A stretch of 64,000 bases of DNA from Hyphomicrobiales bacterium (GTDB taxonomy: Bacteria; Pseudomonadota; Alphaproteobacteria; Rhizobiales; Beijerinckiaceae): contig JANXWK010000031.1 in assembly GCA_025351165.1 (NCBI GenBank), forward strand, positions 3,198 through 67,197. Direction: 5' to 3'. Each line of letters starts with the position of its first letter. The stretch's first letter is position 1. The translations under genes were made by a program, and so were the position numbers. The notes below the pieces were generated by a model. The model was not told the origin of the DNA and did no database searches. It saw only the letters and a list, made by a program, of their open reading frames with translations. Shown here in pieces: positions 10,275-60,586 of the stretch.

Positions 10275-10294
10275 TACAGACTTTCAATTTAGAT

Positions 10295-10915: not shown

Positions 10916-10945
10916 GATGATCTGCCATTTTGAGTTCAGGTGTTA

Positions 10946-35700: not shown

Positions 35701-37548
35701 ATGTCAGGAGATGTATTTGGCAATGGAATGCTGCTCTCTCCAGTCATTAAACTGATTGCAGCATTCGATCATCGTGATATTTTTCTTGATCCAAACCCTG
35801 ATGTGGAAAGAACTTTTGCTGAACGCCAGCGCATGTTTGATTTGCCACGCTCCAGCTGGCAGGATTTTGATAAATCCCTTCTTTCAAAGGGTGGAGGGAT
35901 TTTTGCCCGCTCGCTCAAGGAAATGCCTTTGTCAATTGAAGTGCAGGCCATGCTCAACCTGTTTCAGGATAAGGCTACTCCCCAGGACGTTATGAGCGCC
36001 ATTCTCAAAGCACAGGCTGATCTTCTGTGGTTTGGCGGTATCGGCACATATATCTGCGCCTCCACTGAAACAAATGAACAGGTTGGTGACCGCGCTAATG
36101 AGGCCATTCGCATTACTGGGCCGCAGGTCAGGGTTAAAGTCATAGGGGAAGGCGCAAATCTGGGGGCAACGCAGCTTGGGCGCATAGAGGCAGCTCAGGC
36201 TAGCGTTCGGTTAAACACGGATGCAATTGATAATTCTGCTGGCGTAAACACGTCTGACGTTGAGGTGAATATCAAAATTGCGCTTGCAAAACTGGAGGGT
36301 GAACTGGGGCCCGATGCCCGTGTTCAGCTTCTTGCAAGCATGACAGATGAAGTTGGCGCCCTGGTTTTACGCAATAACTATCTTCAGAGCCTTAGCATTT
36401 CTCTTACAGAAAACCGTGCTCAGAATGATTTACCCTATCAGCGTAAACTTATGCTGCATCTGGAAAAAGATGGCCGACTTGACCGTAAAATTGAATTTTT
36501 GCCTGACGAAAATACATTAAATGCACGTGAAAAGCTAGGGTTGGGGCTAACACGTCCAGAGCTGAGTATTCTGCTGGCTTATGCTAAACTGTATCTCCAC
36601 GACATGATTTTAGCATCAGATGCGCCAGATGATACCTATTTTGAACATGACTTGTTAAATTATTTCCCGGTGGCCCTGCGCAAGGCCTACCCAGAAACCA
36701 TTACCACGCATCGTTTACGCCGTGAAATTATTGCAACCCAGCTTGCCAACAGTATCGTAAATCGCGGTTCGTTGAGTATAATGACCCGTGTGTCAAATGG
36801 AACAAAATTGAGTGCCTCAACCCTTGATGCCTCAACCCTTGCGCGAAGCTATGTTGTGGCACGCAACGCATTCGGTCTAAATGATATAAATGCCGAGATT
36901 GATGCGCTTGATACAAAAATATTGGGTAGTTTGCAGATGGAACTCTACACCAGGGTGCAGAATACAACAATTGCACTGGTGGGATGGTTCTTGCACAATG
37001 GTGATTTCTCCAAAGGTATTGAGGCGGTTATCGCGCGTTTTGCCAAAGGTCTTGATGTTATACGCATGTCCCTGCCAGAAGATGCTAAAGCTTACATTCA
37101 GATTGAGATGGAGGCTTTGTATGGCAAGGGAGTACCAAGCCCTCTGGCATCAAATATTGCTGAACTTTCCTATCTGGAGAAAATGCCTGATATTATCAGC
37201 ATCTCGGACTTGACTGATACAAGCGAAGATAAAGTAAGCGCCCTGTTTTTGGCAAGTGATGAAGCTCTTCAGTTCTCGACTCTCAAAACATTGGGTAGCG
37301 GCATAAAGTCAGCTGACATATTTGACGGACAGGCACGTGATATGGCTTTGGAGCGCATAACCCGCGCGCATCGCACTTTATCAATCAACATACTTAAAGC
37401 AGGTCATTCCTATCATGATTGGGCAGCCCATTTTACCGATAGGCTTGAGCCTGTGAAGTTGACTGTTTCACAGATTATCAGTTCTGGCATAAGTGTTTCC
37501 AAACTGACGATAGCGGCTGGATTATTGGGGGATTTGGCAGTGAATTGA
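32746..37548 (+). CDS. gdhB: NAD-specific glutamate dehydrogenase, large (about 180 kDa) class
   Basis: 1600 aa with a GTG start. The catalytic core is GLHLRFGKVARGGLRWSDR...KAQQVKNAVIVPVGAKGGFV...VVAADKGTATFSD...GDMSGDVFGNGML, typical of the Bac_GDH family. Confidence 0.92.
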   Translation: MAEKIEQIVNFNKNKSFDLPVSLQDISLMIFGKVAAEDIQRVSFLEREQLARNAVEHLESYNSNYETAKEASIRLIDGILDNTSILEIINDDMPFLLDSTLAELSEQGIEPRLVAHPVLSIEQSLTGKIISISANLSEKSSVGSAVRQSLIHIHLPVIESELHKQALLEALTLTYKDIRRSVVDWTPMKDRLGEAINAYKNNPPPLDPTEVAEAIQFLEWLKADHFILLGTREYSFPDGIGAADPQDGSGLGILRDPSVRILRRGDELVILTPEVRAFLSEPAALIITKSNVKSRVHRRAHMDYIGVKLFDAKGGLSGELRISGLFTSTAYNTSARTIPYLRRKVDNVFKRAGYLPDSYSGRGLDNVIESYPRDELFQIDEDTLLNFSLDILNLSERPRIRVLPRLDQFDRFVSVMVYIPKDRYDTAIRRKVGMVLASLYQGRLSAAYPAYPEGPLSRTHYIIGRDEGKTPVIARETLEQAIAQIIRTWADGLREAMQSLDKPYTDLSLFSRYSDAFSAAYREAFAPAESLADILTIENLTSAKPRTIMFHRREGEAETRASLKVFALGEPMALSQRVPLLEDMGFTVINERTYRVAPKDADETSRVWLHDMTLENKSGKIIDVGGLKPRLESLMTALFSSRTESDGYNALVKDAGLNWREIAVLRCYSRYLRQIKFGLGQEYLWSALNRYPLTAKRLASLFTTRFNPDLDYDLDRRHAAEAEISAEIDNDLASVGSLDDDRILRRFRNLIQSTLRTNFYQTDSNGHHHDIITFKFQSHLVEGLPLPRPEYEIYMDSPRVEGLHLRFGKVARGGLRWSDRPQDFRTEILGLVKAQQVKNAVIVPVGAKGGFVPKKLPSSGNRDLWLKEGTEAYKIFISSLLELTDNLVDNRLTPPLNTVRHDGDDPYLVVAADKGTATFSDTANAISLEKHHWLGDAFASGGSIGYDHKKMGITARGAWEAVKRHFREMDMDIQTTPFTVVGVGDMSGDVFGNGMLLSPVIKLIAAFDHRDIFLDPNPDVERTFAERQRMFDLPRSSWQDFDKSLLSKGGGIFARSLKEMPLSIEVQAMLNLFQDKATPQDVMSAILKAQADLLWFGGIGTYICASTETNEQVGDRANEAIRITGPQVRVKVIGEGANLGATQLGRIEAAQASVRLNTDAIDNSAGVNTSDVEVNIKIALAKLEGELGPDARVQLLASMTDEVGALVLRNNYLQSLSISLTENRAQNDLPYQRKLMLHLEKDGRLDRKIEFLPDENTLNAREKLGLGLTRPELSILLAYAKLYLHDMILASDAPDDTYFEHDLLNYFPVALRKAYPETITTHRLRREIIATQLANSIVNRGSLSIMTRVSNGTKLSASTLDASTLARSYVVARNAFGLNDINAEIDALDTKILGSLQMELYTRVQNTTIALVGWFLHNGDFSKGIEAVIARFAKGLDVIRMSLPEDAKAYIQIEMEALYGKGVPSPLASNIAELSYLEKMPDIISISDLTDTSEDKVSALFLASDEALQFSTLKTLGSGIKSADIFDGQARDMALERITRAHRTLSINILKAGHSYHDWAAHFTDRLEPVKLTVSQIISSGISVSKLTIAAGLLGDLAVN
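36814..36843. repeat. 15-bp x2 in-frame tandem duplication inside gdhB
   Basis: gcctcaacccttgat / gcctcaacccttgcg, encoding ASTLD-ASTLA. Confidence 0.85.
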
Positions 37549-46738: not shown

Positions 46739-47416
46739 CTATAAGTGCATATTATTGGTTGTAAGCCGTTGCTCCGCCAAAACCCCAGCGTCAAGTGCAT
46801 TAATTCCAATGTCTATTACAAGGGCTTCAACCACAGGTTCTTTCCATCCCTTAAGTGTATTCCATCGACTACGTGTCAACACATATTTGTCACTCAACGT
46901 TTTTCCCCCGCGTGCAGGCATGTCCTGAATACCAGAACCTTCTTGAGTAAAACCAGATTTAACTAATACACGACATGAAGATTCGTTGAAAATTCTTACA
47001 TGTGCAGTAGTTTGGCTTGCATCACTTAACGTAAATACCGCATCCATTAACGCTTGAACAGACTCAGTAGCATAGCCTTGACCATGGTAATCTGCATCAA
47101 GTGCATAACCTATATTGAAGGTTTGCGCTAAATTGAAACTGCCACCTACCAAGCCTATGACTTCATCGGGCTCCCCCTTGAGCGTCATAACAAGCTGAAG
47201 TCCATTGCCAAGTGAATTAAACTTGCGCATTTCAAAAATACGGCGCTCGACTTCCCCATCTAAGAGTGGGTAAGGCCAAGTGGCGGTCATTTCTGCTACA
47301 TGTTTCACACTCATCATGCGCTGAATCGCCTCTGCATCGTTAATGCATGCCCAGCGCAACCAAAGACGATTGGTTTCAATGCGAAAAACATCATCGCGAG
47401 TGAGTTCAGGAAACAT
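46739..47416 (-). CDS. GNAT-family N-acetyltransferase (RimJ/RimL-like)
   Basis: 225 aa. TNRLWLRWACINDAEA..., IGYALDADYHGQGYATES and RVLVKSGF are typical of the Acetyltransf_3 type. Confidence 0.75.
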   Translation of the reverse strand: MFPELTRDDVFRIETNRLWLRWACINDAEAIQRMMSVKHVAEMTATWPYPLLDGEVERRIFEMRKFNSLGNGLQLVMTLKGEPDEVIGLVGGSFNLAQTFNIGYALDADYHGQGYATESVQALMDAVFTLSDASQTTAHVRIFNESSCRVLVKSGFTQEGSGIQDMPARGGKTLSDKYVLTRSRWNTLKGWKEPVVEALVIDIGINALDAGVLAEQRLTTNNMHL

Positions 47417-51077: not shown

Positions 51078-51782
51078 CTAAAATTGCCAGAATATTTCTG
51101 AGGTCTTTTCTGCTATTCGATTTGCCATAGCGCCACGTGAACCAAACTGGTATGAAAGCTGACTGGCATATGCACTGGCTGCAGCTATCTTGGCGTCAAT
51201 ATCAACCGCACTGAGTAACCTTGTTTCAGATGGGTTATTGGATTGGGTGGAGGTTTTATCTGCATAAGGCCAATCGCTCCACAGTTTGACACATGCCCTG
51301 TCCAGAAATCCATCTGTGATCATTGCAGCAATTACATCACGAACAACCCAGTGATCTACATGATTCCCGATTGCCGCTGGCGCAAACACAGCGGCAGGAC
51401 AAAGGCTTCTAACAAGATCAATAAGCTCAGGACGCAGGCTTATGCTTACAGTATCCTGTGTAAGACGAGGACAAAAAAGGGCAGCAGCAGTGTCATACCC
51501 ACGATGAGGAGCTTCCAGCAGCGGCAGATGGAGTGCATTTACGCCCAGAATACGGCATGCTTCCAGGTCCTCCTTGCGGCGAAGCGCCATATAGTCCACA
51601 TTTGCCGCAATCCCTTTATCAAGCTGGCACGAAAGGGCAAAGCCCAGGGGCTGAGCGACATTGCCTGTAAAACAGGTTGCAATGACCACTTTCCAGCCTT
51701 CTTTTGCATATTGATGCAACGTGCCGCCCGCAGAAAAAACTGCATCATCAAGATGGGGTGAAAGGGCAAGCAGTGTAGGCAT
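51078..51782 (-). CDS. PIG-L/LmbE-family N-acetylglucosaminyl deacetylase
   Basis: LLALSPHLDDAVFSAGG (PHxDD zinc motif) and GNHVDHWVV (HxDH). 234 aa. Its start overlaps the GT4 stop in TGATG. Confidence 0.8.
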   Translation of the reverse strand: MPTLLALSPHLDDAVFSAGGTLHQYAKEGWKVVIATCFTGNVAQPLGFALSCQLDKGIAANVDYMALRRKEDLEACRILGVNALHLPLLEAPHRGYDTAAALFCPRLTQDTVSISLRPELIDLVRSLCPAAVFAPAAIGNHVDHWVVRDVIAAMITDGFLDRACVKLWSDWPYADKTSTQSNNPSETRLLSAVDIDAKIAAASAYASQLSYQFGSRGAMANRIAEKTSEIFWQF

Positions 51783-53002
51783 CAGAGCAAATGAGGTTCA
51801 GCGCGAAAACGACAGGGATCTTGAGGCAATACAGTATCAAAGCTCAAATCAGGGGATGTTCCAGCAAGAGCTGTATAGACATTCATGATCTTATGACCCA
51901 CGATCTCCCAGCTATAGGTCGCTCGACATTCTTCAAGAGCGGCATGACCAAGATTTGTACGTAATTTATCGTCCACAATCAGACTACGCAGAGCAGAAGC
52001 TTGAGCAGGAATATCGCCAGCATCAACCAGAAGACTGTTCACCTCATGTCGTAGGCAATCTATAACCCCAACCGAACGACATGAGACGATTGCATGACCG
52101 TTTGCCATGGCTTCAAGAATTGTGTTTGAAAAGCCCTCCGCATAGGTTGGCGATGCAAAAATTTGGTGTGCTTGATAGATTGATGGCACATTGTTATAAT
52201 CTGCATAGCCAGAAAATGTAATACGGTTCTCAAGTCCTTTTTCAGCAGCAAGTGCGATGGCTGCATCCAGATCAGGGCCAATTCCAGATATGGTTGCCAT
52301 CCAGGATATATCTAGCAAAAGTGCAAGAGCTTCGATGAAATCCAGCACACCCTTACGGCGATCCACTCGTCCATGATAGAGGATACCAACAGGTTTTGTA
52401 TTTTTTTGTGGACATGGCCCCGCGGGTTTGAAATGCCGTGTATCGACCGCACCTGGAATAAGTGTGAAACGGCTCATTGGTGTGCCGAGCCGTTCATGTA
52501 CTTCTTTTGCAAAGCTGTTGCCTCCAATTAAGACTGCACCAGCATGATCAAGCACACGCTCCATCGCAAGGCGATGACATTTGCAACATGAGCCAACCCA
52601 GTGACCATCACCTCCTTGTATGGAAACTATATTGGGCACGCCTGTAATCTGTGATGCCAATATTGTTGCCCAACCAGTTGGATAGCCATACTGTGCATGG
52701 AGAATATCAAAAGGCTTATAGCTGTGTTCAGCGATAATTGTTTCAACTATTGTATTAATATCGGATTCAAAATCGCCATTTTCTTGCTCACCAATTTGTT
52801 CCAGCCCAATGACACGCACTCCATCCACGAGTGGTGGCGGGCCACCTCCATAAACTGATCGACCAAATTCATCGCCGCGATACTGGCTTATCATGGTCAC
52901 ATCATGACCAGCAGCCACAAGTTGCTTAAGTAAGTTAACTGCATAGATCGACATGCCAGAAATTGCAGGGAAATATCGCCGACTGATAAAACATATCCTC
53001 AT
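51782..53002 (-). CDS. GT4-family (GT-B) glycosyltransferase, MshA/BshA-like
   Basis: MRICFISRRYFPAISGMSIYAVNLLKQLVAAGHDV is a Glyco_trans_4-type N-terminus. The C-terminal EGFSNTILEAMANGHAIV is the E-x7-E motif. Confidence 0.85.
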   Translation of the reverse strand: MRICFISRRYFPAISGMSIYAVNLLKQLVAAGHDVTMISQYRGDEFGRSVYGGGPPPLVDGVRVIGLEQIGEQENGDFESDINTIVETIIAEHSYKPFDILHAQYGYPTGWATILASQITGVPNIVSIQGGDGHWVGSCCKCHRLAMERVLDHAGAVLIGGNSFAKEVHERLGTPMSRFTLIPGAVDTRHFKPAGPCPQKNTKPVGILYHGRVDRRKGVLDFIEALALLLDISWMATISGIGPDLDAAIALAAEKGLENRITFSGYADYNNVPSIYQAHQIFASPTYAEGFSNTILEAMANGHAIVSCRSVGVIDCLRHEVNSLLVDAGDIPAQASALRSLIVDDKLRTNLGHAALEECRATYSWEIVGHKIMNVYTALAGTSPDLSFDTVLPQDPCRFRAEPHLL

Positions 53003-53889
53003 GTTGAGGTCGCCATATTTTTTTCAGTCGCCATGTTTTTTTCAGTCGCCATATTTTTTTCAGTCGCTTGGAGAAAACAAATGGCCTCGGGAATTGCTTG
53101 ATGTGCACGTGGGCTTTCACGGGAAAGCTCTACACAGATCAACTTTTGAAATTCTATGGTGTTTAAAGCAGCAAGCACACCTGGCACGTCCATATCGCCT
53201 TCGCCAAACGGAAGATGCACATGAATGCCGCGCTTCATGTCTTCAATTGAAATGGTTCCAATTTGATCGGCATAATGAATAATGGCCTCTGCAGGTTCCA
53301 TATCCTGCGTTACAAGACAATGACCGAGGTCAAGTGCTAATTGAAGCGATGGATTAAGGCTCTTCAATCGTGCATACTCGCTCAATTTTTCGACAAGCAT
53401 TCCTGGTTCAGGCTCAAGGCTGATGGAAACACCACGTGTTTTACCATAAACACAAACCTTTGCTATGCCCTCTTCCAGCCAGCGCCATGCCTCATGCTGG
53501 TCAACATTGGCTTGGGGAATTCCTGCCCAGAATGATACTGTTTCCGAGTGAAGAATTGCTGCTATATCAATGGCACGTTCTAAAAATTCGATTCGGCGCG
53601 CGCGCCCATCAGGGTCTGGGTTAAGCAAAGTTGGTTCATGCTTATGCCGAAAATCAAGCAGGTAGCGGGCTCCAGTCTCAATAACGTTGCCAAGGCCCAG
53701 ATTTTTTAACCTGACTGCTAACTGGTTAGCCTGTGTCTCCCAATTAGGCGCAAATGGATCAAGGTGATGATGATCAAGCGTTAGGGCAATACCATCATAC
53801 CCTGCCTCAGCAATCAGATTAACTGCATCTTCAAGACGATGGTTTGATGCGCCATTGGTGTTATAGGCAAAACGTAGCTTAGTTCCCAT
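52999..53889 (-). CDS. xylose-isomerase-like TIM-barrel protein (sugar phosphate isomerase/epimerase, inosose dehydratase-like family)
   Basis: KLRFAYNTNGASNHRLEDAVNLIAEAGYDGIALTLDHHHLDPF...SLEPEPGM...LDLGH...HLPFGEGD is the AP_endonuc_2-type metal-binding pattern. The start is ambiguous among ATGs at 53889, 53898, 53904 and 53922. The C-terminus carries (TEKNMA)x3. Confidence 0.72.
   Translation of the reverse strand: MGTKLRFAYNTNGASNHRLEDAVNLIAEAGYDGIALTLDHHHLDPFAPNWETQANQLAVRLKNLGLGNVIETGARYLLDFRHKHEPTLLNPDPDGRARRIEFLERAIDIAAILHSETVSFWAGIPQANVDQHEAWRWLEEGIAKVCVYGKTRGVSISLEPEPGMLVEKLSEYARLKSLNPSLQLALDLGHCLVTQDMEPAEAIIHYADQIGTISIEDMKRGIHVHLPFGEGDMDVPGVLAALNTIEFQKLICVELSRESPRAHQAIPEAICFLQATEKNMATEKNMATEKNMATST
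53011..53064. repeat. 18-bp x3 tandem repeat at the TIM-barrel 3' end, just upstream of the GT4 start codon
   Basis: cgccatatttttttcagt / cgccatgtttttttcagt / cgccatatttttttcagt at 53011-53028, 53029-53046 and 53047-53064. It encodes TEKNMA x3 on the minus strand. Confidence 0.95.
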
Positions 53890-55444
53890 GACTGGCATTC
53901 CCATGACTGGCCAATCTGTCATCTGACATGGATGCTCCCGACTGCGCCTGCGCAACATGATGGGCTTCAGGCTCCCGATAAAGTGGGTAGAGAGGGCCAA
54001 CGATTTTGTCAGCCATGGCAACATCAAAAAAAGGCTGTCCGCCAAGTCTTTCTATGGCATCGTTGGTTAATCGGACAGGTTGCATGGTAGAACCAGATTC
54101 AACTTGAAAGCGAATAAGATCTGAGCCTGATTCCATCAACTTACGGGTGTTACGCTCCCCAATGCAATAATAGCTCATTGTTTCAACCTCAAGCTTTGGA
54201 ACAATTGTCTTTGCCACAGCAATTGACCGATCTGTTGGTGAAAGATCAACATACAGTAAATCAAATCCTTGCTCTTCTACCTGGTCCCGTGTGATCTGAC
54301 CACGCTGGCGGGCATCTTCCACTTTAGTATTTGGCATGGACGACATCTGTCTTGATCCTTTTGCACTGAGTACAGTTTCTGACAGCCAATTCTCGAGTGT
54401 TGCGGCATCACGCGTCGTCCAGTCGCTCATGGCATTGAAAGCACGTATGTCTGCTGACTTTGAAGCATTGCCAGCCTGTGCCATGAACCTTTGAATATAG
54501 CCTTTGGGCGCAACACGTTCTACAAGCTCATTTGGCCCATGGGCGAATGCTTTACGAACACGTGATGCAGCAAATTCACACATTGCTTTTTCAAGTGCGC
54601 TGTTGCGATCTGGGTGGCAGCCCTCCCCACAGGCAGTAACCATGATGGGTGTTGCAGGGGAAAAACCGTCAATCATGCGCCCGACGCAGTAGACATTGGG
54701 AATACCAAACTGGTCACTGGCAAATTTTGGCAGTATTTCAATGCCAGCCTGTTCAAACCGTTTTTTTAGCCCAAAAAGCACGGGTGCATCAGTATCCATA
54801 TCTATCAAAGTCCCTTTATCAAGGGCTCTGAATGTTAGACCATTGCCATCCCGCTGAAGAAGTTCACATAGTCCATGGCCAACGGCCCATTCAATATCAG
54901 GACCAGCCCCCATTCCGTTGGTGATAACTGGTGTAAAAGGCTTGTAATAAGGAGAAAAAGCCATTGAATTATCGGTGGCAACCTCAATTGGCACCAATAC
55001 AGTTGCACCGTCGCGCTGACGTTTGGCTTCTACCCAATCCATTAGGGTGGTGTCATTGACAGGTGCCCCTGCTGGCAAACAGAGTGTCAATGGGTTGACC
55101 GCAGAACCAACCCCATGCGCTTGAACAAGATCAGAATAACTGGCATTGATTTTGCGAATATTACGTAACGACAGTGTCGGCCACAGCATTTCAGCTGCTT
55201 CGCCAATACTGCCCAGAATAGCCGCTTCATCGGTTAATCCATAGCCTACACCATAAGGCATAAGTCCATGCAAGGATGGATCATGGGGGAAAAAGGCAAC
55301 AGTCCAAACAGGAATGCCAATGGTATCAAGCTCTGTTAAAGGAAATGCAACAATATCGCCAGGCGGCATTGCGTCAATATACTGACATACGGCAGGGCCT
55401 ATTTCACGAAGGGCTTTAGCATCAAGGGCGGTTGGATTGTTCAT
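53879..55444 (-). CDS. YcaO-domain protein (ATP-dependent amide-activating enzyme family), stand-alone
   Basis: 521 aa. GVGYGLTDEAAILGSIGEAAEM and TNGMGAGPDIEWAVGHGLCELLQRDGN match the two conserved YcaO core blocks (G.G.....A..SA.GE..ER and SNG.A.G...EA...ALLE..ERD). The C-terminal part is proline-containing (GPLYPLYREPE). Confidence 0.72.
   Translation of the reverse strand: MNNPTALDAKALREIGPAVCQYIDAMPPGDIVAFPLTELDTIGIPVWTVAFFPHDPSLHGLMPYGVGYGLTDEAAILGSIGEAAEMLWPTLSLRNIRKINASYSDLVQAHGVGSAVNPLTLCLPAGAPVNDTTLMDWVEAKRQRDGATVLVPIEVATDNSMAFSPYYKPFTPVITNGMGAGPDIEWAVGHGLCELLQRDGNGLTFRALDKGTLIDMDTDAPVLFGLKKRFEQAGIEILPKFASDQFGIPNVYCVGRMIDGFSPATPIMVTACGEGCHPDRNSALEKAMCEFAASRVRKAFAHGPNELVERVAPKGYIQRFMAQAGNASKSADIRAFNAMSDWTTRDAATLENWLSETVLSAKGSRQMSSMPNTKVEDARQRGQITRDQVEEQGFDLLYVDLSPTDRSIAVAKTIVPKLEVETMSYYCIGERNTRKLMESGSDLIRFQVESGSTMQPVRLTNDAIERLGGQPFFDVAMADKIVGPLYPLYREPEAHHVAQAQSGASMSDDRLASHGNASHGN
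53883..53912. repeat. 15-bp x2 tandem duplication in the YcaO 3' end / TIM-barrel 5' end overlap
   Basis: ttcccatgactggca / ttcccatgactggcc. It gives SHGNASHGN at the YcaO C-terminus and duplicates PVMG, with its ATG, at the TIM-barrel N-terminus. Confidence 0.9.
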
Positions 55445-56259
55445 AATGGGATCCGCTTTACGGCAGGGGGGCGTGCAAGGGCTTCGTCAAGAACACTAAG
55501 CGCTACATCGCGGTTGACTTCGGGCGCATATTCAAATGGGGTACATAAACTGTTAAACGGAAGCTCGGCGATAACAGCACGATACTTGCGTAGCTCGCCA
55601 TGTGTGAGTGGAATATTTTTATGAAACGCCTTATGCGTTGAAATTGCATGCGAGACCTCTCGCTCATCTTGGTCAACCTTGAACATGTCACCGCAGAACA
55701 GTCTATGTGCATGTGCATCATGCAATGCCGCCTGGCCAGCGTAATGTCCCCCAACATGGTGCAGGGTATAGCCAGGTGCAAGTTCCAGTACATCATCAAA
55801 CGGAGTGGTGACATTCATGGCCTTTGTCATGACCAGATCATCCTTGTGAATGGCCAGAAGCTCAGGCTTGCAATCACGCTGGAGCTGGAACAGCGCACCA
55901 TAACCATGCGCATGACTCGCGGCAAGAAAACGAATACCACCCAGGACATGAATTTGCTCAAGCATTTGCGGAGTATAATAAGGTGCAGCCTCAAAGGCGA
56001 TGTTGCCACCCTCACGTATAATGAGCCAGCCTATCCCCGCAAGTCCTAGATTTGGATGGGTTTTAAATCCCCATAAATCAGGTGCATATTGTTTCCAGCT
56101 TCCCGTATGCGTTGCCGCAATCTCTGTTTCTGGTTGAAAATCCCAGCCATTTTCAGGCAGGTCGTTGCGTGCATCAGCACACACGGGACAGAGCGGAGGA
56201 GCTGCAAAATAAACCTGCCAGAAACCGCAATTGGTACACGCCCAAGGGCTTAAAGACAT
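55441..56259 (-). CDS. MBL-fold protein with an N-terminal Cys4 zinc ribbon
   Basis: CTNCGFWQVYFAAPPLCPVC is a CxxC...CxxC ribbon. The MBL-like blocks are LAASHAHGYG (HxH present, Asp-His absent), HHVGGH and FCGD. 272 aa. It has an ATGA overlap with YcaO. Confidence 0.55.
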   Translation of the reverse strand: MSLSPWACTNCGFWQVYFAAPPLCPVCADARNDLPENGWDFQPETEIAATHTGSWKQYAPDLWGFKTHPNLGLAGIGWLIIREGGNIAFEAAPYYTPQMLEQIHVLGGIRFLAASHAHGYGALFQLQRDCKPELLAIHKDDLVMTKAMNVTTPFDDVLELAPGYTLHHVGGHYAGQAALHDAHAHRLFCGDMFKVDQDEREVSHAISTHKAFHKNIPLTHGELRKYRAVIAELPFNSLCTPFEYAPEVNRDVALSVLDEALARPPAVKRIPL

Positions 56260-57260
56260 AACCGTGCCTCCTGATATGCGGCATCAAACATGCGCGCTAA
56301 AATAATGTCACGGCTCGCGCAAAACTCATGGGGCGCACCTCTGACTGCCTCGCTAAACGCCTGCGCCTGCGCTGTGAATGGTGAAATTGTTGTATTAAAC
56401 GGAATGACTGATATTTTTCCTGTCTTCCCGCATTGCTGATTCAAAATACCGCCTGGCGTTTGACCCATTGTGTCTAATGCTGTGAGCATCCCTGTTTCGC
56501 CTACAACCTCAAGTCGACGGCGGGGCAGGGATTCAGCATAATTATACGCTACATGCTGTGAAACCAGTATACCATTGACACTACGCCCAATCAGCATACC
56601 ACCATCATCCACTGGATAGTTATGTATACGTCGCTGAAGTTTGATTGAAAGCTGTGCAAGTGGCTCATCAAGGAGCATTTGTGCTAGATCCAGGCCATGC
56701 AAGGCTAAATCAATAACCGCTCCTCCGCCAGCCTTTGCAGGATCTGCACGCCAGTTAGTTGTTTGAGATTCGTCTGCTGACCATGCAGGATCAACCCAGC
56801 ACGCATAAACAATACGTATGGCTGTAGGGGTACCGATACTGCCCTGCTGAATCAGTTCCCGCATTTTTTTATGGGCTGGATGATGACGCTGGTCAAATGC
56901 AGTGCCATAAATTACTGATTTGGCGAGAACAGCTGCGTACATTGCTTCGGCGTCTTTAAGGGTCGCTGCCATAGGCTTCTCACATAATATTGGAATGCCC
57001 TTCCCTGCAGCCAGGATGACTGCCTCTGCATGACAGTTATTTGGTGTGGCCACATAAACGGCATCAAGATGAGCATTGCAAAGCAGCTCTTTGGCAGTAT
57101 CATAACAGGTAAAACCATTGGTGTGTGCTATTTTACAAACCTCTGGAGAAGGGTCAGCTACAGCAACCACGCGTCCACCAGCAGCTATGATTGCAGGTAT
57201 CATAAAATCTCGCGCCACCCAGCCATAACCGATAATTCCCCAACCAAGACCCATTACCAA
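56250..57260 (-). CDS. Gfo/Idh/MocA-family NAD(P)-dependent oxidoreductase (inositol/sugar dehydrogenase-like)
   Basis: GWGIIGYGWVARDFMIPAI...VVAVADP is a Rossmann fold. It also has the ILCEKPMA (EKP) motif and a C-terminal alpha/beta domain. Confidence 0.85.
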   Translation of the reverse strand: MVMGLGWGIIGYGWVARDFMIPAIIAAGGRVVAVADPSPEVCKIAHTNGFTCYDTAKELLCNAHLDAVYVATPNNCHAEAVILAAGKGIPILCEKPMAATLKDAEAMYAAVLAKSVIYGTAFDQRHHPAHKKMRELIQQGSIGTPTAIRIVYACWVDPAWSADESQTTNWRADPAKAGGGAVIDLALHGLDLAQMLLDEPLAQLSIKLQRRIHNYPVDDGGMLIGRSVNGILVSQHVAYNYAESLPRRRLEVVGETGMLTALDTMGQTPGGILNQQCGKTGKISVIPFNTTISPFTAQAQAFSEAVRGAPHEFCASRDIILARMFDAAYQEARLCL

Positions 57261-58441
57261 CGCTCCGGAAGGTCAACCAGTTCACGGCAGGCGGTAGCAG
57301 CTTCATATTGGGACGCCATCAAAACCTTGTCAGGCACGCCTTTTGCGCATTGCCATGACACGCAAGGCCCATACTCTTGTGCATACCGTGGGCTAGGCCA
57401 GGAAATACTGTCATTATTGCATAGAGGATTACGATGAAGCATTGTTCCATATGTTGGCCGAGACAATGGACCATAGGCACAACCAGGCATTAATGCCGTT
57501 TGATCTGGCAAATTACTGTATAAAAGCGACAGTGCCGCAACAGTCTCCAGTTCTCTGCCAGCTACAGGTACGCGTCTTTGCGATCCGGCAAGAGTTAATT
57601 CGGCATCATCATAGACAGCTGCGCCTGGAAACAGAGGCAGTAAATCTTTCAGCCCAATTGAGGCTGCACCTGAAAGATTGTCGGCAGCGGCGTTGTGCAC
57701 ATGCGCAACTGCAACAATACCTTTAGCAGCAGCTATACGAAGAGCCGCTGCGACTGCTGCTTTATCATGAAAGAAATAAAAAGAATCATGACACACCGCA
57801 AGATCAACACATAATTCTATTGGCCAAGGCTGCTCCGCATCAAAGCAAACTAGCATTGGACGGGACCCAACAACCCAATTTCGTGCAATCCATAATTTAG
57901 AAAATACTAAATCCGCGCCGATAGTCTTAACTCCAACACGGTCAAGTTCGCGTAGATAGTGCCCAATACCACAGGCAAGTTCAAATGCGGTATCTGGTTC
58001 ATGCCAATGTGCATCCATTAGTGCAAGGCCTGCAACAAAGGTAGGATCGCTCCAGCGATGTGCAAAATATGTGCCCACTCGTCCATAGCCGAGCAGGTTC
58101 ATCGCCTCACGCAGATTAAGCTGATGTCTGTTGTTCAGCAAGGAATGAAGGTCAGAGTCAGGGGGTGCAGGCTCATCCCACCAATCATCGTTTTCGGATA
58201 ATAAAAGGCGCAAAGCTGCGGGTTCATCGCCTAAATCAATTGCCTTGAGTGCCTCAGTGGCCCGCTCACGTGATTTGGCACGAAGATAAGGGATGTTCTC
58301 TATGACAGGCCACCGTTCGCCAGCTCCGTCTGTCAAGCAGGATGCGCTTTCAAATGTCAAAGCTCGTCCACTGCACGGAGACCGCCAGCCAGCAATTAAA
58401 GGATATTCCTTAACCTGCGGGCTTGGACGGATCTGGCTCAT
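57254..58441 (-). CDS. class I SAM-dependent methyltransferase with a Trm112-like N-terminal segment
   Basis: Motif I is AFELACGIGHYLRELD and the post-I acidic residue is in IGADL. The N-terminal C..RALTFESASCLTDGAGERWPVIENIPYL resembles a Trm112/zinc-ribbon-like module. 395 aa. Confidence 0.65.
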   Translation of the reverse strand: MSQIRPSPQVKEYPLIAGWRSPCSGRALTFESASCLTDGAGERWPVIENIPYLRAKSRERATEALKAIDLGDEPAALRLLLSENDDWWDEPAPPDSDLHSLLNNRHQLNLREAMNLLGYGRVGTYFAHRWSDPTFVAGLALMDAHWHEPDTAFELACGIGHYLRELDRVGVKTIGADLVFSKLWIARNWVVGSRPMLVCFDAEQPWPIELCVDLAVCHDSFYFFHDKAAVAAALRIAAAKGIVAVAHVHNAAADNLSGAASIGLKDLLPLFPGAAVYDDAELTLAGSQRRVPVAGRELETVAALSLLYSNLPDQTALMPGCAYGPLSRPTYGTMLHRNPLCNNDSISWPSPRYAQEYGPCVSWQCAKGVPDKVLMASQYEAATACRELVDLPERW

Positions 58442-59412
58442 GCTAAACCTGCCTGAAACAACACTGTATCATGGAAAGCTTTTACAGGGCCAGCATGAAC
58501 AAGCTCGTATTCATTGAGAACTGCATTCATGGTCAAACCTGCACCCTTCAGATGATGCTTTATTTCAATGACACGGTCGAGCACATCGGCTGCATGAAAC
58601 GCACGTGCTAAGGGGGTATGATCAGATGTTATTTCAGCCAGTAATGGCCTGATCTGATTGGTAAGGGCATGAGGCAATGTGGACATTGCAGCTTCCCTTG
58701 CAGCATTGATGACAGTGTCAAGCACATCACCCAGCAGCATTTCGCCTGTAAATCCACTATCTGGCATAGTCGCGCTGTGAAAATGATGACACATGCCCGC
58801 AAGAAAGACGTTTGCTGGTTCTGCACCGTAAAGCGGGGCAATCAACGCACTTGCAACAGCAACCACAAGGCAATGCTCGGCATGGTTTTCTTCTGGCTGA
58901 AGCATGATACGCGCACGATCAGGACAGGTAATACCTGCACGGGGTTGACGTGCAAGCTGTTTACAAAAATTTGGTGCAACACTATCAATCTGAGTATCAG
59001 CATCAAGCGTGCAGCGAAGCTTTACAGCCAACGCAGAATCTACCGGTGCTGATACAGCGTCAAATGACCTTTTTAAGATTTCACAAGCTTTTGCCTCATC
59101 CAAACCTAGACTGGTGAGCACTGCACGATCAAGATCGCCAAGTCGGCAAGCTGCGAGCGCGCGGGCACAGATTATTTGCATTACCATTTCTATGGACACG
59201 CCTGCAACAAGGTGCTTCCAGCCATCAAAAAACAACCTGGTCGCAATCGATCCAGTGCGATCTGCAGATACAATTCGCTTGAGATCGGATAATTCTCCTA
59301 TCAATGGAACGAAAGAAGCCAACGGAGCAAAAGACATGGCTTCGTCATTTTTTGCTAATGTCGGCATCGCAATGTCTGCAATCGCATGCATGTTTTCAAG
59401 GCTAGTTTGCAT
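58438..59412 (-). CDS. HD-superfamily-like protein (YfbR-like C-terminal half, HD dyad replaced by HH)
   Basis: EENHAEHCLVVAVA...GMCHHFHSATMPDSG...FHAADVLDRVIE aligns by eye to the YfbR-type blocks ENVSEHSLQVA...YHDASEVLTGD...KQADALCAYL. The N-terminal 160 aa or so are unassigned. Confidence 0.45.
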   Translation of the reverse strand: MQTSLENMHAIADIAMPTLAKNDEAMSFAPLASFVPLIGELSDLKRIVSADRTGSIATRLFFDGWKHLVAGVSIEMVMQIICARALAACRLGDLDRAVLTSLGLDEAKACEILKRSFDAVSAPVDSALAVKLRCTLDADTQIDSVAPNFCKQLARQPRAGITCPDRARIMLQPEENHAEHCLVVAVASALIAPLYGAEPANVFLAGMCHHFHSATMPDSGFTGEMLLGDVLDTVINAAREAAMSTLPHALTNQIRPLLAEITSDHTPLARAFHAADVLDRVIEIKHHLKGAGLTMNAVLNEYELVHAGPVKAFHDTVLFQAGLA

Positions 59413-60586
59413 TACGCAGCCATGTGTCCAAAATCATCTGCTGTTCACCAAAAGCATGCACAGGTTTGCGATTAGACCCTGTTTGAGGTGCCTTGAAATA
59501 AACACCAAGTTGATCCTGAATGCCGCCTTCGCCGCGCTGAAGGGCAAGATCCAGAACACGGGCTATCTCAATCACAAGTGGGGCAGCAAGAATGGAATCC
59601 TTGCACAGAAAATTAAGTTTAAGTTGCATACGCTGCCCAAGAAAGCCTGATATATCAATATTGTCCCACGCTTCCTTGTCGTCTCCACGTGGACGGTAGT
59701 AATGAATATGTACAATATGGTCTTCAACAGGGTAGCCAAGCATTTCATCAAGCACTTTTGTTTTTGTGCCAATTTTTGAAGCTAGCGATTTTGGATCATG
59801 CAAGGCTTTGCCATCGCTGTTTCCAAGAATATTTGTTGAAAACCACCCGTCCACATGAAGCGCGCGCGCTTTAAGTGCGGGCGCAATAACTGTTTTTAAC
59901 AATGTCTGTCCGGTCTTGCCATCCTTGCCTGCTATGGGAACATTGCGCTCCTGTGCCATTGTCGCAAGTGGCAGGATATCAGCAGCAACACTTGGTGTAA
60001 AATTGGCATAAGGCACGCCGCTCAAAATAGCAGCATAGGCATAAAGCATTGCAGGGCTGATTTCAGGATCATCTGCATCCAGTCCACGTTCGAACTGGGG
60101 TAATGACGCAAAACTGGAGCTGGCAAGATCAGGCAAACGCTCAGTTGATGCAAGGTTGATCATTACAAGGCGGTTGACACTTTGAGTTTTACGAATACCT
60201 GCAAGGTCTGAACAAATTGTCTCAATGGCATTACGATGCGATAAAGCCGCTACCTTGTGCGCGCCATCAATATTGGCACAAAAATCAACGCTGCCCACAG
60301 CAGGCCTTGGACGCATGGTGCGAAGCGCTGACGCACCGTTTGAAAGTTCAGCCTCGCCAATAACCCCGTGGCGCAATGCTGCAGAACCCAGATCATCCCC
60401 GCAAAGATCCCAGCCTGAAAATACCATATCACGGTAATCGACAATTCCATCTGCTTTGCATTCTGCAAGCGGAAGACCATCAAGCCCATTTGAGCCTGAC
60501 TTAAGCATCTCAATACCTGCAATTGCAGTTGTCGCTACAGCGCCACCCATACCAATAAAGGCAACACCCAGTTTTTCAGTTAACAT
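59402..60586 (-). CDS. ino1: myo-inositol-1-phosphate (inositol-3-phosphate) synthase
   Basis: GVAFIGMGGAVATT is the NAD-binding N-terminus, and NILGNSDGKAL is the MIPS GN(N/S)DG block. The size fits bacterial/archaeal MIPS. ATG at 60586 has an aaaggaaa RBS 7-8 nt upstream. The track start, TTG at 60619, is less likely. Confidence 0.82.
   Translation of the reverse strand: MLTEKLGVAFIGMGGAVATTAIAGIEMLKSGSNGLDGLPLAECKADGIVDYRDMVFSGWDLCGDDLGSAALRHGVIGEAELSNGASALRTMRPRPAVGSVDFCANIDGAHKVAALSHRNAIETICSDLAGIRKTQSVNRLVMINLASTERLPDLASSSFASLPQFERGLDADDPEISPAMLYAYAAILSGVPYANFTPSVAADILPLATMAQERNVPIAGKDGKTGQTLLKTVIAPALKARALHVDGWFSTNILGNSDGKALHDPKSLASKIGTKTKVLDEMLGYPVEDHIVHIHYYRPRGDDKEAWDNIDISGFLGQRMQLKLNFLCKDSILAAPLVIEIARVLDLALQRGEGGIQDQLGVYFKAPQTGSNRKPVHAFGEQQMILDTWLRNAN

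What the first reader, a model, noticed from the sequence alone, without database searches (positions are those of the whole stretch)
53879..55444. Orphan YcaO with no cyclodehydratase partner, no TfuA and no obvious precursor peptide, embedded in sugar metabolism
The protein carries the two YcaO core blocks (GYGLTDEAAILGSIGEAAEM and TNGMGAGPDIEWAVGHGLCELLQRDG). Established knowledge: YcaO enzymes use ATP to activate amide carbonyls in peptides (azolines, thioamides with TfuA, macroamidines), and most characterised members act on ribosomal peptides. Here, none of the neighbours looks like an E1/Ocin-ThiF partner, a TfuA, a flavin dehydrogenase or a Cys/Ser/Thr-rich precursor. The flanking genes are an MBL-fold protein and a sugar TIM barrel, both overlapping it. 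Inference: the substrate may be a small-molecule amide. One example would be the N-acetyl amide of a GlcNAc-inositol intermediate, converted to an amidine or thioamide. Alternatively the enzyme may act as a ligase surrogate for the missing MshC-like step. The first block ends in E..EM rather than the usual E..ER, which may matter for nucleotide binding.
Basis: partly seen in the sequence, partly recalled or inferred. Interest (0 to 1): 0.75.

Follow-up and report, generated by a model that had tools for sequence, protein, structure and literature searches.

The report
YcaO enzyme in an inositol–aminosugar operon
This is a genuine YcaO-type ATP-dependent enzyme that, unlike every characterised relative (all of which modify peptides or proteins), is a fixed part of a widely conserved nine-gene operon for an inositol–aminosugar compound, so it may be the first YcaO that works on a small sugar molecule.

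Summary
ORF 53879-55444 (-) is a YcaO-domain protein (Pfam E 2e-49). It has no E1/Ocin-ThiF or TfuA neighbour and no conserved short ORF nearby.

It is not an isolated orphan. It is gene 6 of a tightly packed nine-gene operon: inositol-phosphate synthase, HD-like protein, methyltransferase, Gfo/Idh/MocA oxidoreductase, MBL-fold protein, YcaO, TIM barrel, GT4 glycosyltransferase, PIG-L deacetylase. The same order recurs in about 70 genome loci from Sphingomonas, Acetobacteraceae, Beijerinckiaceae, Caulobacteraceae and Erythrobacteraceae. Cassette genes also flank 65 of 86 loci whose YcaO is only 31-50% identical.

In distant relatives the upstream MBL-fold protein is fused to the YcaO (5 loci), and in one lineage the PIG-L deacetylase is fused to it. 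Cassette-free clade members sit beside a non-homologous NodB-type sugar deacetylase.

The clade has an invariant ExxQRD block (Gln where other YcaOs have Glu) and a conserved C-terminal YREP..H motif.

Best reading: a new YcaO subfamily with an MBL-fold partner that acts on the C2 acetamide or amine of a GlcNAc/GlcN-cyclitol. The exact reaction is unknown. No literature on this cassette was found.

The parts
59402..60586 (-). Gene 1: myo-inositol-phosphate synthase (394 aa from the ATG at 60586; the longest ORF starts at a TTG at 60619)
   Evidence: Pfam PF07994 (E 8e-53) and PF01658 (E 1e-33). Gene call of 394 aa in L003. First gene of the cassette in 67 of 83 related loci; the others are cut by contig ends.
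58438..59412 (-). Gene 2: HD-domain-like protein (324 aa), YfbR-like. The canonical HD dyad is replaced by HH (H209-H210). Putative phosphatase of the sugar-inositol-phosphate; the role is inferred.
   Evidence: The window protein matches HD_3 only weakly, but 19 of 22 family members match it (best E 2e-9) and 8 match YfbR-like. Alignment to PDB 2cqz places H180, H209-H210 and D276 at the metal-ligand positions. Invariant residues are listed.
57254..58441 (-). Gene 3: class I SAM-dependent methyltransferase-like protein (395 aa) with N- and C-terminal extensions
   Evidence: Pfam Methyltransf_11 E 7e-6. The family profile hits PDB 3e8s, a SAM methyltransferase, at E 1.8e-5. Conserved in the cassette.
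56250..57254 (-). Gene 4: Gfo/Idh/MocA NAD(P)-dependent sugar/inositol oxidoreductase (334 aa)
   Evidence: Pfam PF01408, PF22725 and PF02894. Partial NCBIfam match to IolG, 103 bits, below cut-off. Best PDB match is 1,5-anhydro-D-fructose reductase 2glx, 139 bits.
55441..56259 (-). Gene 5: MBL-fold protein with an N-terminal four-Cys zinc ribbon (272 aa). Proposed dedicated partner of the YcaO.
   Evidence: 19 of 20 family members match Lactamase_B and 20 of 20 match a rubredoxin-like ribbon. AlphaFold pLDDT 94.2. Foldseek finds MBL-fold proteins, best 2p97 with TM 0.77. C8, C11, C24, C27, H116, H118, H172, D191 and H209 are invariant, and the motif is SHAHGYG instead of HxHxDH. Fused in frame to YcaO in L085, L087, L089, L095 and L097. 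Its stop overlaps the YcaO start by 4 nt.
53879..55444 (-). Gene 6: the YcaO-domain protein (521 aa), the finding itself
   Evidence: PF02624, 169 bits, E 2e-49. Model pLDDT 83.6, with solved YcaO structures as the only significant fold matches. E82, E85, E194, Q197, R198, D199 and the C-terminal Y489-R490-E491-P492...H495 are conserved across 59 clade members.
52999..53889 (-). Gene 7: xylose-isomerase-like TIM-barrel protein (296 aa), a sugar/inosose isomerase, epimerase or dehydratase type
   Evidence: PF01261 E 1e-34. Weak NCBIfam matches to IolO, UlaE and IolE, all below cut-off. Start at 53889 from the L003 gene call and from homologues. Present in 82 of 83 loci.
51782..53002 (-). Gene 8: GT4 retaining glycosyltransferase (406 aa), distantly similar to BshA/MshA
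   Evidence: PF00534 and PF13439. BshA 74 bits and MshA 72 bits, both far below cut-off. PDB BshA/MshA about 58 bits.
51078..51782 (-). Gene 9: PIG-L/LmbE-family N-deacetylase (234 aa)
   Evidence: PF02585 E 9e-19. Weak matches to BshB1, Mca and MshB. Fused to the YcaO in L086.
60974..61002 (-). Promoter-like site upstream of gene 1. This is a weak consensus match only.
   Evidence: TTAACA-17-TAAAAT with an upstream TG, 10 of 12 matches. The number of such sites in the region is not above the shuffled expectation.

Best explanation
The ORF encodes a catalytically competent YcaO-superfamily enzyme, that is, an ATP-dependent activator of a carbonyl through O-phosphorylation of a tetrahedral adduct. 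It belongs to a distinct, deep subfamily defined by an invariant ExxQRD block and a C-terminal YREP..H motif.

It is one step of a nine-gene, translationally coupled pathway, not a free-standing orphan. Inferred from domain families, the pathway would:
1. Make inositol phosphate (INO1).
2. Glycosylate it with an N-acetyl-hexosamine (GT4).
3. Dephosphorylate it (HD-like protein).
4. De-N-acetylate it (PIG-L).
5. Tailor it by oxidation/isomerisation (Gfo/Idh/MocA plus TIM barrel) and methylation.

The YcaO works together with the MBL-fold/zinc-ribbon protein encoded immediately upstream, which takes the place that E1-like or TfuA proteins hold in other YcaO systems. I infer that the pair acts on the C2 nitrogen substituent of the aminosugar. 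One option is that it activates the acetamide carbonyl, giving an amidine, thioamide or oxazoline-type product. The other is that it uses the amine freed by the deacetylase as the nucleophile on an activated carbonyl.

Shown: domain identity, fold, conserved acidic residues, synteny and gene fusions. Inferred: the small-molecule substrate, the order of steps and the reaction outcome.
For: YcaO identity and fold:
-.
- Acidic and nucleotide-site residues E82, E85, E194, R198, D199, E290 and R295 are kept in at least 57 of 59 clade members.

Operon:
- Start/stop overlaps between genes.
- Gaps too small for extra genes.

Synteny:
- Same nine genes in the same order in Sphingomonas echinoides and a MAG.
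- Same order in 67-82 of 83 loci, depending on contig ends.
- Same in Methylobacterium, minus the MBL gene.
- Cassette genes adjacent in 65 of 86 loci whose YcaO is only 31-50% identical.

Fusions:
- MBL::YcaO in 5 loci and PIG-L::YcaO in 1 locus.

Non-orthologous replacement:
- Cassette-free clade members lie next to a Polysacc_deac_1 (NodB) deacetylase, GT2 transferases and a sugar ABC transporter.
- A 32%-identical member lies next to two GT4 genes.

No peptide logic:
- No conserved short ORF.
- No RRE/E1/TfuA family hit in any cassette protein.

Independence from known subfamilies:
- Not a member of any curated YcaO subfamily: SagD 94 of 219 bits, methan_mark_1 93 of 365, TIGR00702 54 of 76.
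Against: - Every YcaO characterised so far acts on a peptide or protein backbone (PMC13063428). No small-molecule substrate has a precedent.
- The closest solved structures are protein-thioamidating archaeal YcaOs.
- After deacetylation the predicted intermediate has no amide, and no cassette enzyme obviously makes one, so the electrophile is undefined.
- The MBL gene is missing from the Beijerinckiaceae and Methylobacterium cassettes, so the partner is not universally required.
- Only one lineage shows the PIG-L fusion.
- The Glu-to-Gln change at a position recalled to be a Mg2+ ligand (Dunbar et al. 2014, from memory) might alter or weaken ATP chemistry.
- Nothing here was tested biochemically.
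Confidence: 0.55

Rival explanations
1. The YcaO modifies a full-length protein or peptide encoded elsewhere in the genome, for example by backbone thioamidation. This is what E. coli YcaO does to ribosomal protein uL16 and archaeal YcaO does to McrA. On this reading its place in the sugar operon reflects co-regulation, not shared chemistry.
For: - All characterised YcaOs act on peptides or proteins, and EcYcaO has no nearby substrate gene (PMC13063428).
- The nearest sequence and structure matches are the TfuA-independent McrA-thioamidating YcaOs MJ1094 (6pe3/6peu) and M. kandleri (6ci7).
Against: - The gene sits inside the same operon, with start/stop overlaps, across alphaproteobacterial families and in relatives of 31-50% identity.
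- It is fused to a sugar deacetylase and to the MBL neighbour.
- Similarity to MJ1094 is only 21% identity and 64-76 bits, far below the methan_mark_1 cut-off.
- The family pI of 5.1 is unremarkable, against 4.4 for the uL16-specific group (PMC13063428). This is a weak argument.
Confidence: 0.2
2. The YcaO post-translationally matures one of the cassette's own enzymes, for example by installing a thioamide or azoline in the MBL-fold protein or another pathway enzyme. The fusion would then be an enzyme-substrate fusion rather than an enzyme-partner fusion.
For: - Precedent exists for YcaO modification of an enzyme near its active site (McrA; PMC13063428).
- The MBL-like protein is the most conserved cassette protein, with 79% mean column identity.
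- It is fused or adjacent to the YcaO.
Against: - Cassettes without the MBL gene keep the YcaO.
- Cassette-free clade members keep a sugar deacetylase or glycosyltransferase neighbour but not the other cassette enzymes.
- No Cys/Ser/Thr-rich or otherwise peptide-like conserved tail was noticed in the alignments.
Confidence: 0.1
3. The cassette makes a mycothiol/bacillithiol-like thiol, and the YcaO replaces the ATP-dependent MshC/BshC ligase step.
For: INO1 plus GT4 plus PIG-L parallels Ino1/MshA/MshB. The GT4 and PIG-L proteins show weak similarity to BshA/MshA and BshB/MshB.
Against: - All mycothiol and bacillithiol equivalog scores are far below cut-off: Ino1 40 of 638, MshA 72 of 462, MshB 26 of 224.
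- The cassette has no MshD-type acetyltransferase and no cysteine-related gene.
- The extra oxidoreductase, TIM-barrel and methyltransferase genes have no role in that pathway.
- Known YcaO chemistry activates amide carbonyls, not carboxylates (established knowledge; PMC13063428).
Confidence: 0.07
4. The protein is a catalytically impaired YcaO that serves a structural or regulatory role, for example as a scaffold for the pathway enzymes, because a canonical Glu is replaced by Gln.
For: Gln197 replaces the Glu found in MJ1094, LynD and TruD in all 59 clade members.
Against: The other acidic and basic residues of both blocks, and the C-terminal motif, are almost invariant over very deep divergence. 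That pattern is typical of a working active site. Gln can still ligate Mg2+ (inference).
Confidence: 0.04

Closest known systems
Archaeal McrA-thioamidating YcaO (M. jannaschii MJ1094, PDB 6pe3/6peu; M. kandleri, PDB 6ci7)
   Same: Best sequence hit (E 2.5e-20 with the family profile) and best fold hit (TM 0.77). Both are single-domain YcaOs with no E1-like partner. The TNG..G...E..(E/Q)RD block and the E..SR block are shared.
   Different: Only 21% identity. It scores 93 bits against a 365-bit cut-off for TIGR03266. It has about 130 extra residues, Gln replaces the second Glu of the block, and it carries a different conserved C-terminus. The genomic context is a cyclitol/aminosugar operon, not methanogenesis.
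E. coli YcaO (uL16 Met82 thioamidation; PDB 4q84-4q86)
   Same: A YcaO with no adjacent precursor, E1 or TfuA gene. It shows that "orphan" YcaOs can have non-RiPP substrates (PMC13063428).
   Different: Weak fold match (TM about 0.4). TIGR00702 scores 54 bits, below the 76-bit cut-off. The family is not strongly acidic, with pI 5.1 against 4.4. It is locked into a metabolic operon, whereas E. coli ycaO is not.
Fused E1-like::YcaO azoline cyclodehydratases (LynD, TruD, PatD) and split C/D systems (McbB/McbD, BalhC/BalhD)
   Same: The architecture logic matches: an accessory domain is encoded just upstream of the YcaO in some lineages and fused to its N-terminus in others. The YcaO fold is shared.
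   Different: The accessory domain here is MBL-fold with a four-Cys ribbon, not E1/RRE-like. There is no precursor peptide and no dehydrogenase. SagD-family score is 94 of 219 bits. No C-terminal PxPxP motif is present (that motif is recalled from the literature; the sequence shows YPLYREPEAHH).
Mycothiol / bacillithiol early pathway (Ino1, MshA/BshA, MshB/BshB)
   Same: Inositol-phosphate synthase plus a GT4 GlcNAc-transferase-like enzyme plus a PIG-L deacetylase occur in one locus.
   Different: No ligase (MshC/BshC) or acetyltransferase (MshD) is present. All equivalog scores are far below cut-off. There are additional oxidoreductase, TIM-barrel, methyltransferase, HD, MBL and YcaO genes. 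The hosts are Alphaproteobacteria.
MusD, an ATP-dependent peptidase YcaO (PDB 7u58)
   Same: YcaO fold (rank 7). It shows that the superfamily can use water as the nucleophile to cleave an amide, which is conceptually close to a deacetylase-linked role.
   Different: 15% identity. MusD is a RiPP enzyme with a fused N-terminal domain of another kind and a peptide substrate.

Membership tests
YcaO superfamily (Pfam PF02624 / IPR003776) | Significant match to the YcaO domain model over its full length | tested here: met
   169 bits against a 25.7-bit cut-off, profile positions 2-325 of 325.
YcaO superfamily (Pfam PF02624 / IPR003776) | YcaO fold | tested here: met
   Model pLDDT 83.6. All 41 Foldseek matches with E <= 0.001 are solved YcaO proteins, with TM up to 0.77.
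YcaO superfamily (Pfam PF02624 / IPR003776) | Two acidic ATP/Mg2+ blocks (ExxE(R) and ExxER(D)) | tested here: inconclusive
   E82, E85 and E194 are conserved. The fourth acidic position is Gln197 in 59 of 59 clade members, where MJ1094, LynD and TruD have Glu. ATP binding was not tested.
Azoline-forming TOMM cyclodehydratase (SagD family, TIGR03604) | Score at or above the family cut-off | tested here: not met
   94.2 bits against a 219.25-bit cut-off.
Azoline-forming TOMM cyclodehydratase (SagD family, TIGR03604) | E1-like/Ocin-ThiF (RRE) partner, Cys/Ser/Thr-rich precursor and FMN dehydrogenase in the locus | tested here: not met
   No such family appears among the nine cassette proteins or the immediate neighbours. 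No conserved short ORF was found.
Thioamide-forming YcaO (TIGR03266 methan_mark_1; YcaO-TfuA pairs) | Score at or above the cut-off; TfuA neighbour (optional in some archaea) | tested here: not met
   93.3 bits against a 365-bit cut-off. There is no TfuA in the cassette. Absence elsewhere in the genome is not testable.
E. coli-type YcaO (TIGR00702; uL16 thioamidation) | Score at or above the cut-off; strongly acidic protein (pI about 4.4) | tested here: not met
   54.3 bits against a 75.65-bit cut-off. The window and family-median pI is 5.10, range 4.62-6.30. The pI criterion comes from PMC13063428.
Mycothiol biosynthesis (Ino1, MshA, MshB, MshC, MshD) | Equivalog-level matches to Ino1/MshA/MshB and presence of MshC and MshD | tested here: not met
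   TIGR03450 39.6 of 638, TIGR03449 71.7 of 462.5, TIGR03445 26.3 of 224. No ligase or GNAT is in the cassette. The GNAT at 46739-47416 lies between the obg and rpmA-like ORFs, outside the cassette.
Metallo-beta-lactamase fold superfamily (for the partner protein) | MBL fold and the HxHxDH...H...D...H metal motif | tested here: inconclusive
   The fold is met: pLDDT 94.2, Foldseek 2p97 TM 0.77, and B1 lactamases at about 0.6. The motif is only partly kept: SHAHGYG lacks the Asp-His, while H172, D191 and H209 are retained.

The most novel reading that the evidence does not exclude
This clade is the first YcaO lineage whose native substrate is a small molecule rather than a peptide or protein. 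Working with a new MBL-fold partner, it would carry out ATP-dependent amide or hemiaminal activation on the C2 nitrogen of a GlcNAc/GlcN-cyclitol pseudodisaccharide. The product would be an undescribed amidine-, thioamide- or oxazoline-bearing metabolite made by many leaf-, lichen- and ice-associated Alphaproteobacteria.
Probability: 0.45. Interest if true: 0.88.

Novelty: new variant of a known kind. Interest (0 to 1): 0.78.

Why it matters
YcaO enzymes are the textbook example of ATP-driven peptide-backbone activation (azolines, thioamides, amidines). All characterised members act on ribosomal peptides or proteins, and the function of most standalone YcaOs is unknown (PMC8442711; PMC13063428).

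A large, deeply conserved YcaO clade hard-wired into a cyclitol-aminosugar pathway would extend this chemistry to carbohydrates. It would also add a new class of accessory protein (MBL-fold) to the E1-like and TfuA partners.

It points as well to an unknown metabolite that is widespread in Sphingomonas, Methylobacterium and lichen- or phyllosphere-associated Alphaproteobacteria. That metabolite could be relevant to life on exposed surfaces or to host association.

The hypothesis is directly testable. Cultured, genetically tractable strains carry the cassette, for example Sphingomonas sp. Leaf230/Leaf208/Leaf20, S. echinoides and Methylobacterium oryzisoli.

Tried and rejected
- **Literature.** Nine full-text searches paired YcaO with inositol, Sphingomonas, PIG-L, small molecule/non-RiPP, non-peptidic/cyclitol, LmbE/MBL/glycosyltransferase, aminoglycoside and Methylobacterium, plus inositol-phosphate synthase with Sphingomonas. 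None found a paper on this cassette. The multi-term search was uninformative.
- **Key reviews.** Dunbar et al. 2014 and the 2017 Chem. Rev. review are not held. The identity of the canonical Mg2+ ligands and of the PxPxP motif therefore rests on my memory.
- **Precursor search.** No room inside the operon. No small ORF in the flanks is conserved with the window; the clusters found were confined to closely related Sphingomonas loci and overlapped neighbouring genes.
- **Organism identification.** Exact look-ups of YcaO, Obg, L27, L21, ProB and PurL returned no named members. The window is a 45% GC MAG contig. Its gene order (L21-L27-GNAT-obg-proB-proA, short PurL) looks alphaproteobacterial, but that is inference only.
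- **HD-like protein.** The profile search against PDB gave only marginal HD-domain hits. I considered a MIOX/PhnZ-type diiron oxygenase role because of the many invariant His residues.
- **MBL-like protein.** Sequence searches gave only marginal PqsE hits. The fold search confirmed the fold but gave no specific function. A sulfur-donor role (persulfide-dioxygenase-like) was considered and has no specific support.
- **pI test.** The pI comparison with the uL16-type YcaOs was not discriminating.
- **Fusion count.** Many loci reported by tblastn as matching fused-query residues 1-782 turned out to have two adjacent genes. Only 5 loci have a true in-frame MBL::YcaO fusion. P0343 (apparent Gfo::YcaO) and P0351 look frameshifted or low-complexity and were not used.

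Full report
**1. Observation**

It matches Pfam PF02624 (YcaO) over the whole model at 169 bits, E 2.2e-49. An AlphaFold model built on 22 homologues is confident (pLDDT 83.6, pTM 0.85). Its only significant PDB fold matches are YcaO enzymes. The best is M. jannaschii YcaO 6peu (TM 0.77, 21% identity), followed by LynD, MusD, M. kandleri YcaO, TruD, E. coli YcaO and McbD.

**2. Local anatomy**

The gene is the sixth of nine minus-strand genes running from 60586 to 51078. They overlap or abut one another.

| Gene | Coordinates | Product |
|---|---|---|
| 1 | 59402-60586 | inositol-phosphate synthase |
| 2 | 58438-59412 | HD-like protein |
| 3 | 57254-58441 | class I methyltransferase-like protein |
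| 4 | 56250-57254 | Gfo/Idh/MocA oxidoreductase |
| 5 | 55441-56259 | MBL-fold protein with an N-terminal four-Cys ribbon |
| 6 | 53879-55444 | YcaO |
| 7 | 52999-53889 | xylose-isomerase-like TIM barrel |
| 8 | 51782-53002 | GT4 glycosyltransferase |
| 9 | 51078-51782 | PIG-L deacetylase |

The apparent 167-nt overlap of the TIM-barrel ORF with the YcaO is a longest-ORF artefact. Homologues and an independent gene call start at 53889, which leaves an 11-nt overlap.

None of the nine proteins or their immediate neighbours matches E1/ThiF, TfuA, an RRE or a flavin dehydrogenase. The rest of the window is ordinary chromosome: obg-proB-proA, purL, NAD-GDH, hemY, a YadA-type adhesin and one tRNA-Ser. 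The source is an unnamed MAG contig of about 45% GC.

**3. Comparative genomics**

The YcaO has more than 1,500 relatives in the protein collection. The top 120 are 55-76% identical, and those with names are mostly from Sphingomonas. A genome scan returned 80 loci from Sphingomonas (many leaf and lichen isolates or MAGs), Acetobacteraceae, Beijerinckiaceae, Caulobacteraceae and Erythrobacteraceae.

In these loci, plus three fetched earlier, the same nine genes occur in the same order wherever the contig is long enough. Counts out of 83 loci are TIM 82, GT4 78, Gfo 78, PIG-L 77, MBL 72, and INO1, HD and methyltransferase 67 each. The MBL gene is absent from the Beijerinckiaceae-type cassettes and from Methylobacterium oryzisoli.

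Gaps between cassette genes are tiny. No short ORF in the flanks is shared between the window and other loci. I therefore see no precursor peptide.

**4. Deep relatives and fusions**

An exhaustive HMMER search of 1.84 billion cluster representatives found 109 representatives at E <= 1e-30. Full-length relatives go down to 31% identity.

Several relatives are natural fusions:
- P0284, P0285, P0288 and P0296 carry the complete MBL-fold/zinc-ribbon domain at the N-terminus of the YcaO. That domain is 37-43% identical to the window's gene 5 over its full length.
- P0268 carries a PIG-L domain at the N-terminus of the YcaO.

In-frame fusions were verified in the DNA of L085, L087, L089, L095 and L097 (MBL::YcaO) and of L086 (PIG-L::YcaO).

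A metagenome scan with the clade-specific pattern H[GA][LIV][LG]E[LV]xQRD added 80 more loci. Of the 86 deep loci, 65 have cassette genes next to the YcaO: GT4 56, Gfo 53, TIM 44, PIG-L 42, HD 38, MBL 33, methyltransferase 33 and INO1 23. Many of these contigs are short.

Variants exist. Some lack TIM, some lack the methyltransferase, and some have a second YcaO paralogue after PIG-L.

The 21 loci without cassette genes are mostly short contigs. Where flanks exist they show an ABC sugar transporter and GT2 transferases. In five loci a NodB-type polysaccharide deacetylase lies directly downstream of the YcaO. A 32%-identical member lies beside two GT4 genes.

Across the whole clade the constant companions are therefore a glycosyltransferase and a sugar N-deacetylase. 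The deacetylase comes from two unrelated folds.

**5. Sequence signature**

In 59 clade members spanning 31-57% identity, the following are conserved:
- Q197 and R198 are invariant.
- E194 is kept in 58 of 59.
- E82, E85, E274, E290 and R295 are kept in 57 of 59.
- Within the C-terminal motif Y489-R490-E491-P492...H495, each residue is kept in 52-56 of 59.

At the position of Q197, MJ1094 (LEIIERD), LynD and TruD (MELVERD) have Glu. From memory, this is one of the Mg2+-ligating glutamates of E. coli YcaO (Dunbar et al. 2014; the paper is not held).

It is not a hallmark.

The protein falls below the cut-off of every curated YcaO subfamily: SagD 94 of 219 bits, methan_mark_1 93 of 365, TIGR00702 54 of 76.

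**6. The partner**

Gene 5 models with pLDDT 94.2 and has the MBL fold. The best Foldseek match is 2p97 (TM 0.77), followed by B1 beta-lactamases at about 0.6.

Its metal motif is atypical. It reads SHAHGYG instead of HxHxDH, while H172, D191 and H209 are retained. The four ribbon cysteines are invariant, including in the fused proteins.

This pattern of fusion in some lineages and adjacent, overlapping genes in others mirrors the E1-like::YcaO situation in azoline synthetases. It argues for a physical partnership. Its absence from one group of cassettes shows that it is not indispensable.

**7. Mechanism**

Shown: a YcaO fold with a near-complete nucleotide/Mg site; operon coupling; synteny over deep divergence; fusions to the MBL and PIG-L domains.

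Inferred from the domain families:
- INO1 makes inositol phosphate.
- The GT4 enzyme adds an N-acetylhexosamine. It resembles MshA/BshA only distantly.
- The HD-like protein may remove the phosphate.
- PIG-L removes the acetyl group.
- Gfo/Idh/MocA and the TIM barrel oxidise and isomerise a ring. The best PDB match of the oxidoreductase is 1,5-anhydrofructose reductase, and the TIM barrel gives weak IolO/UlaE/IolE-type matches.
- The methyltransferase adds a methyl group.

The only amide in these predicted intermediates is the C2 acetamide, and the only strong nucleophile created is the C2 amine. Together with the deacetylase linkage, this makes the C2 nitrogen substituent the most probable site of YcaO action. 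The acetamide could be activated and converted to an amidine, thioamide or oxazoline. Alternatively, the freed amine could attack a carbonyl whose tetrahedral adduct is phosphorylated. I cannot decide between these options. I put 0.55 on the general statement (pathway enzyme acting on the glycoside with the MBL partner) and much less on any single reaction.

**8. Rivals**

- A protein or peptide substrate encoded elsewhere is a serious rival. E. coli YcaO thioamidates uL16 with no local substrate gene (PMC13063428), and the closest structures are protein-thioamidating enzymes. It does not explain the fusions or the deep synteny (confidence 0.2).
- Self-maturation of a cassette enzyme is possible (0.1).
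- An MshC-like ligase role is unlikely (0.07).
- A dead-enzyme scaffold is very unlikely (0.04).

**9. Comparison and novelty**

The protein is a member of the YcaO superfamily, but of none of its characterised subfamilies. It works like a YcaO in the sense that the ATP-site residues are conserved. Its context, partner and probable substrate class all differ from every known member.

I found no publication on the cassette. The literature states that most standalone YcaOs are of unknown function (PMC8442711).

I classify the finding as a new variant of a known kind. If the small-molecule substrate is confirmed, it would be a new branch of YcaO chemistry.

**Verdict:** real, not ordinary, and testable in cultured strains. 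Interest 0.78.

Noticed in passing
window 53009-53067 and 53883-53911: There are in-frame tandem repeats at two gene 3' ends. An 18-nt unit repeated 3.3 times gives EKNMAT x3 at the C-terminus of the TIM-barrel protein. A 15-nt unit repeated 1.9 times gives ASHGN x2 at the C-terminus of the YcaO, in the region of the YcaO/TIM overlap. Homologues lack both tails, so these are lineage-specific expansions.
   Followed up: partly
window 58438-59412 (-): The HD-like cassette protein has HH (H209-H210) where HD-domain hydrolases have the His-Asp dyad. It also has several further invariant His residues (H177, H180, H273, H306). It may not be a plain phosphatase; a dinuclear or oxygenase-type site was considered but not tested.
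   Followed up: partly
L085 7150-8676; also L091, L092, L094, L098: Some distant cassettes carry a second YcaO paralogue directly after the PIG-L gene, and they lack the TIM barrel and the methyltransferase. This suggests a two-YcaO variant of the pathway.
   Followed up: partly
L108, L115, L125, L127, L166 (next to the YcaO); L104, L107, L111, L145: Members of the same ExxQRD YcaO clade that lack the cassette lie next to a NodB-type polysaccharide deacetylase, GT2 glycosyltransferases and an ABC sugar transporter.
   Followed up: partly
L062 about 9300-12500: One Sphingomonas MAG locus appears to hold a shortened remnant of the cassette. There are fragmentary Gfo and MBL matches, and no INO1, HD, methyltransferase or PIG-L despite 10 kb of flank.
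   Followed up: no
window 52999-54045 and 59402-60619: The longest-ORF starts (TTG at 54045 for the TIM barrel, TTG at 60619 for INO1, TTG at 57260 for Gfo) are probably not the real starts. Homologues and an independent gene call support 53889, 60586 and 57254.
   Followed up: yes
window 10946-17377 (-) and 32746-37548 (+): A 2143-aa YadA-type trimeric autotransporter adhesin and a 1600-aa NAD-specific glutamate dehydrogenase lie elsewhere in the window. They are unrelated to the finding.
   Followed up: no
window 61164-62438 (+): An MFS transporter is divergently transcribed from the cassette, across a 577-nt intergenic region (60587-61163). It is not conserved next to the cassette in other lineages, so a role as exporter of the product is only a possibility.
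   Followed up: partly
L051 and L078 (genome contigs): Short contigs binned as Vulcanimicrobiota and Nakamurella carry alphaproteobacterial-type cassettes with YcaO 53-57% identical to the window's. This is more likely mis-binning than a genuine occurrence in those phyla.
   Followed up: no
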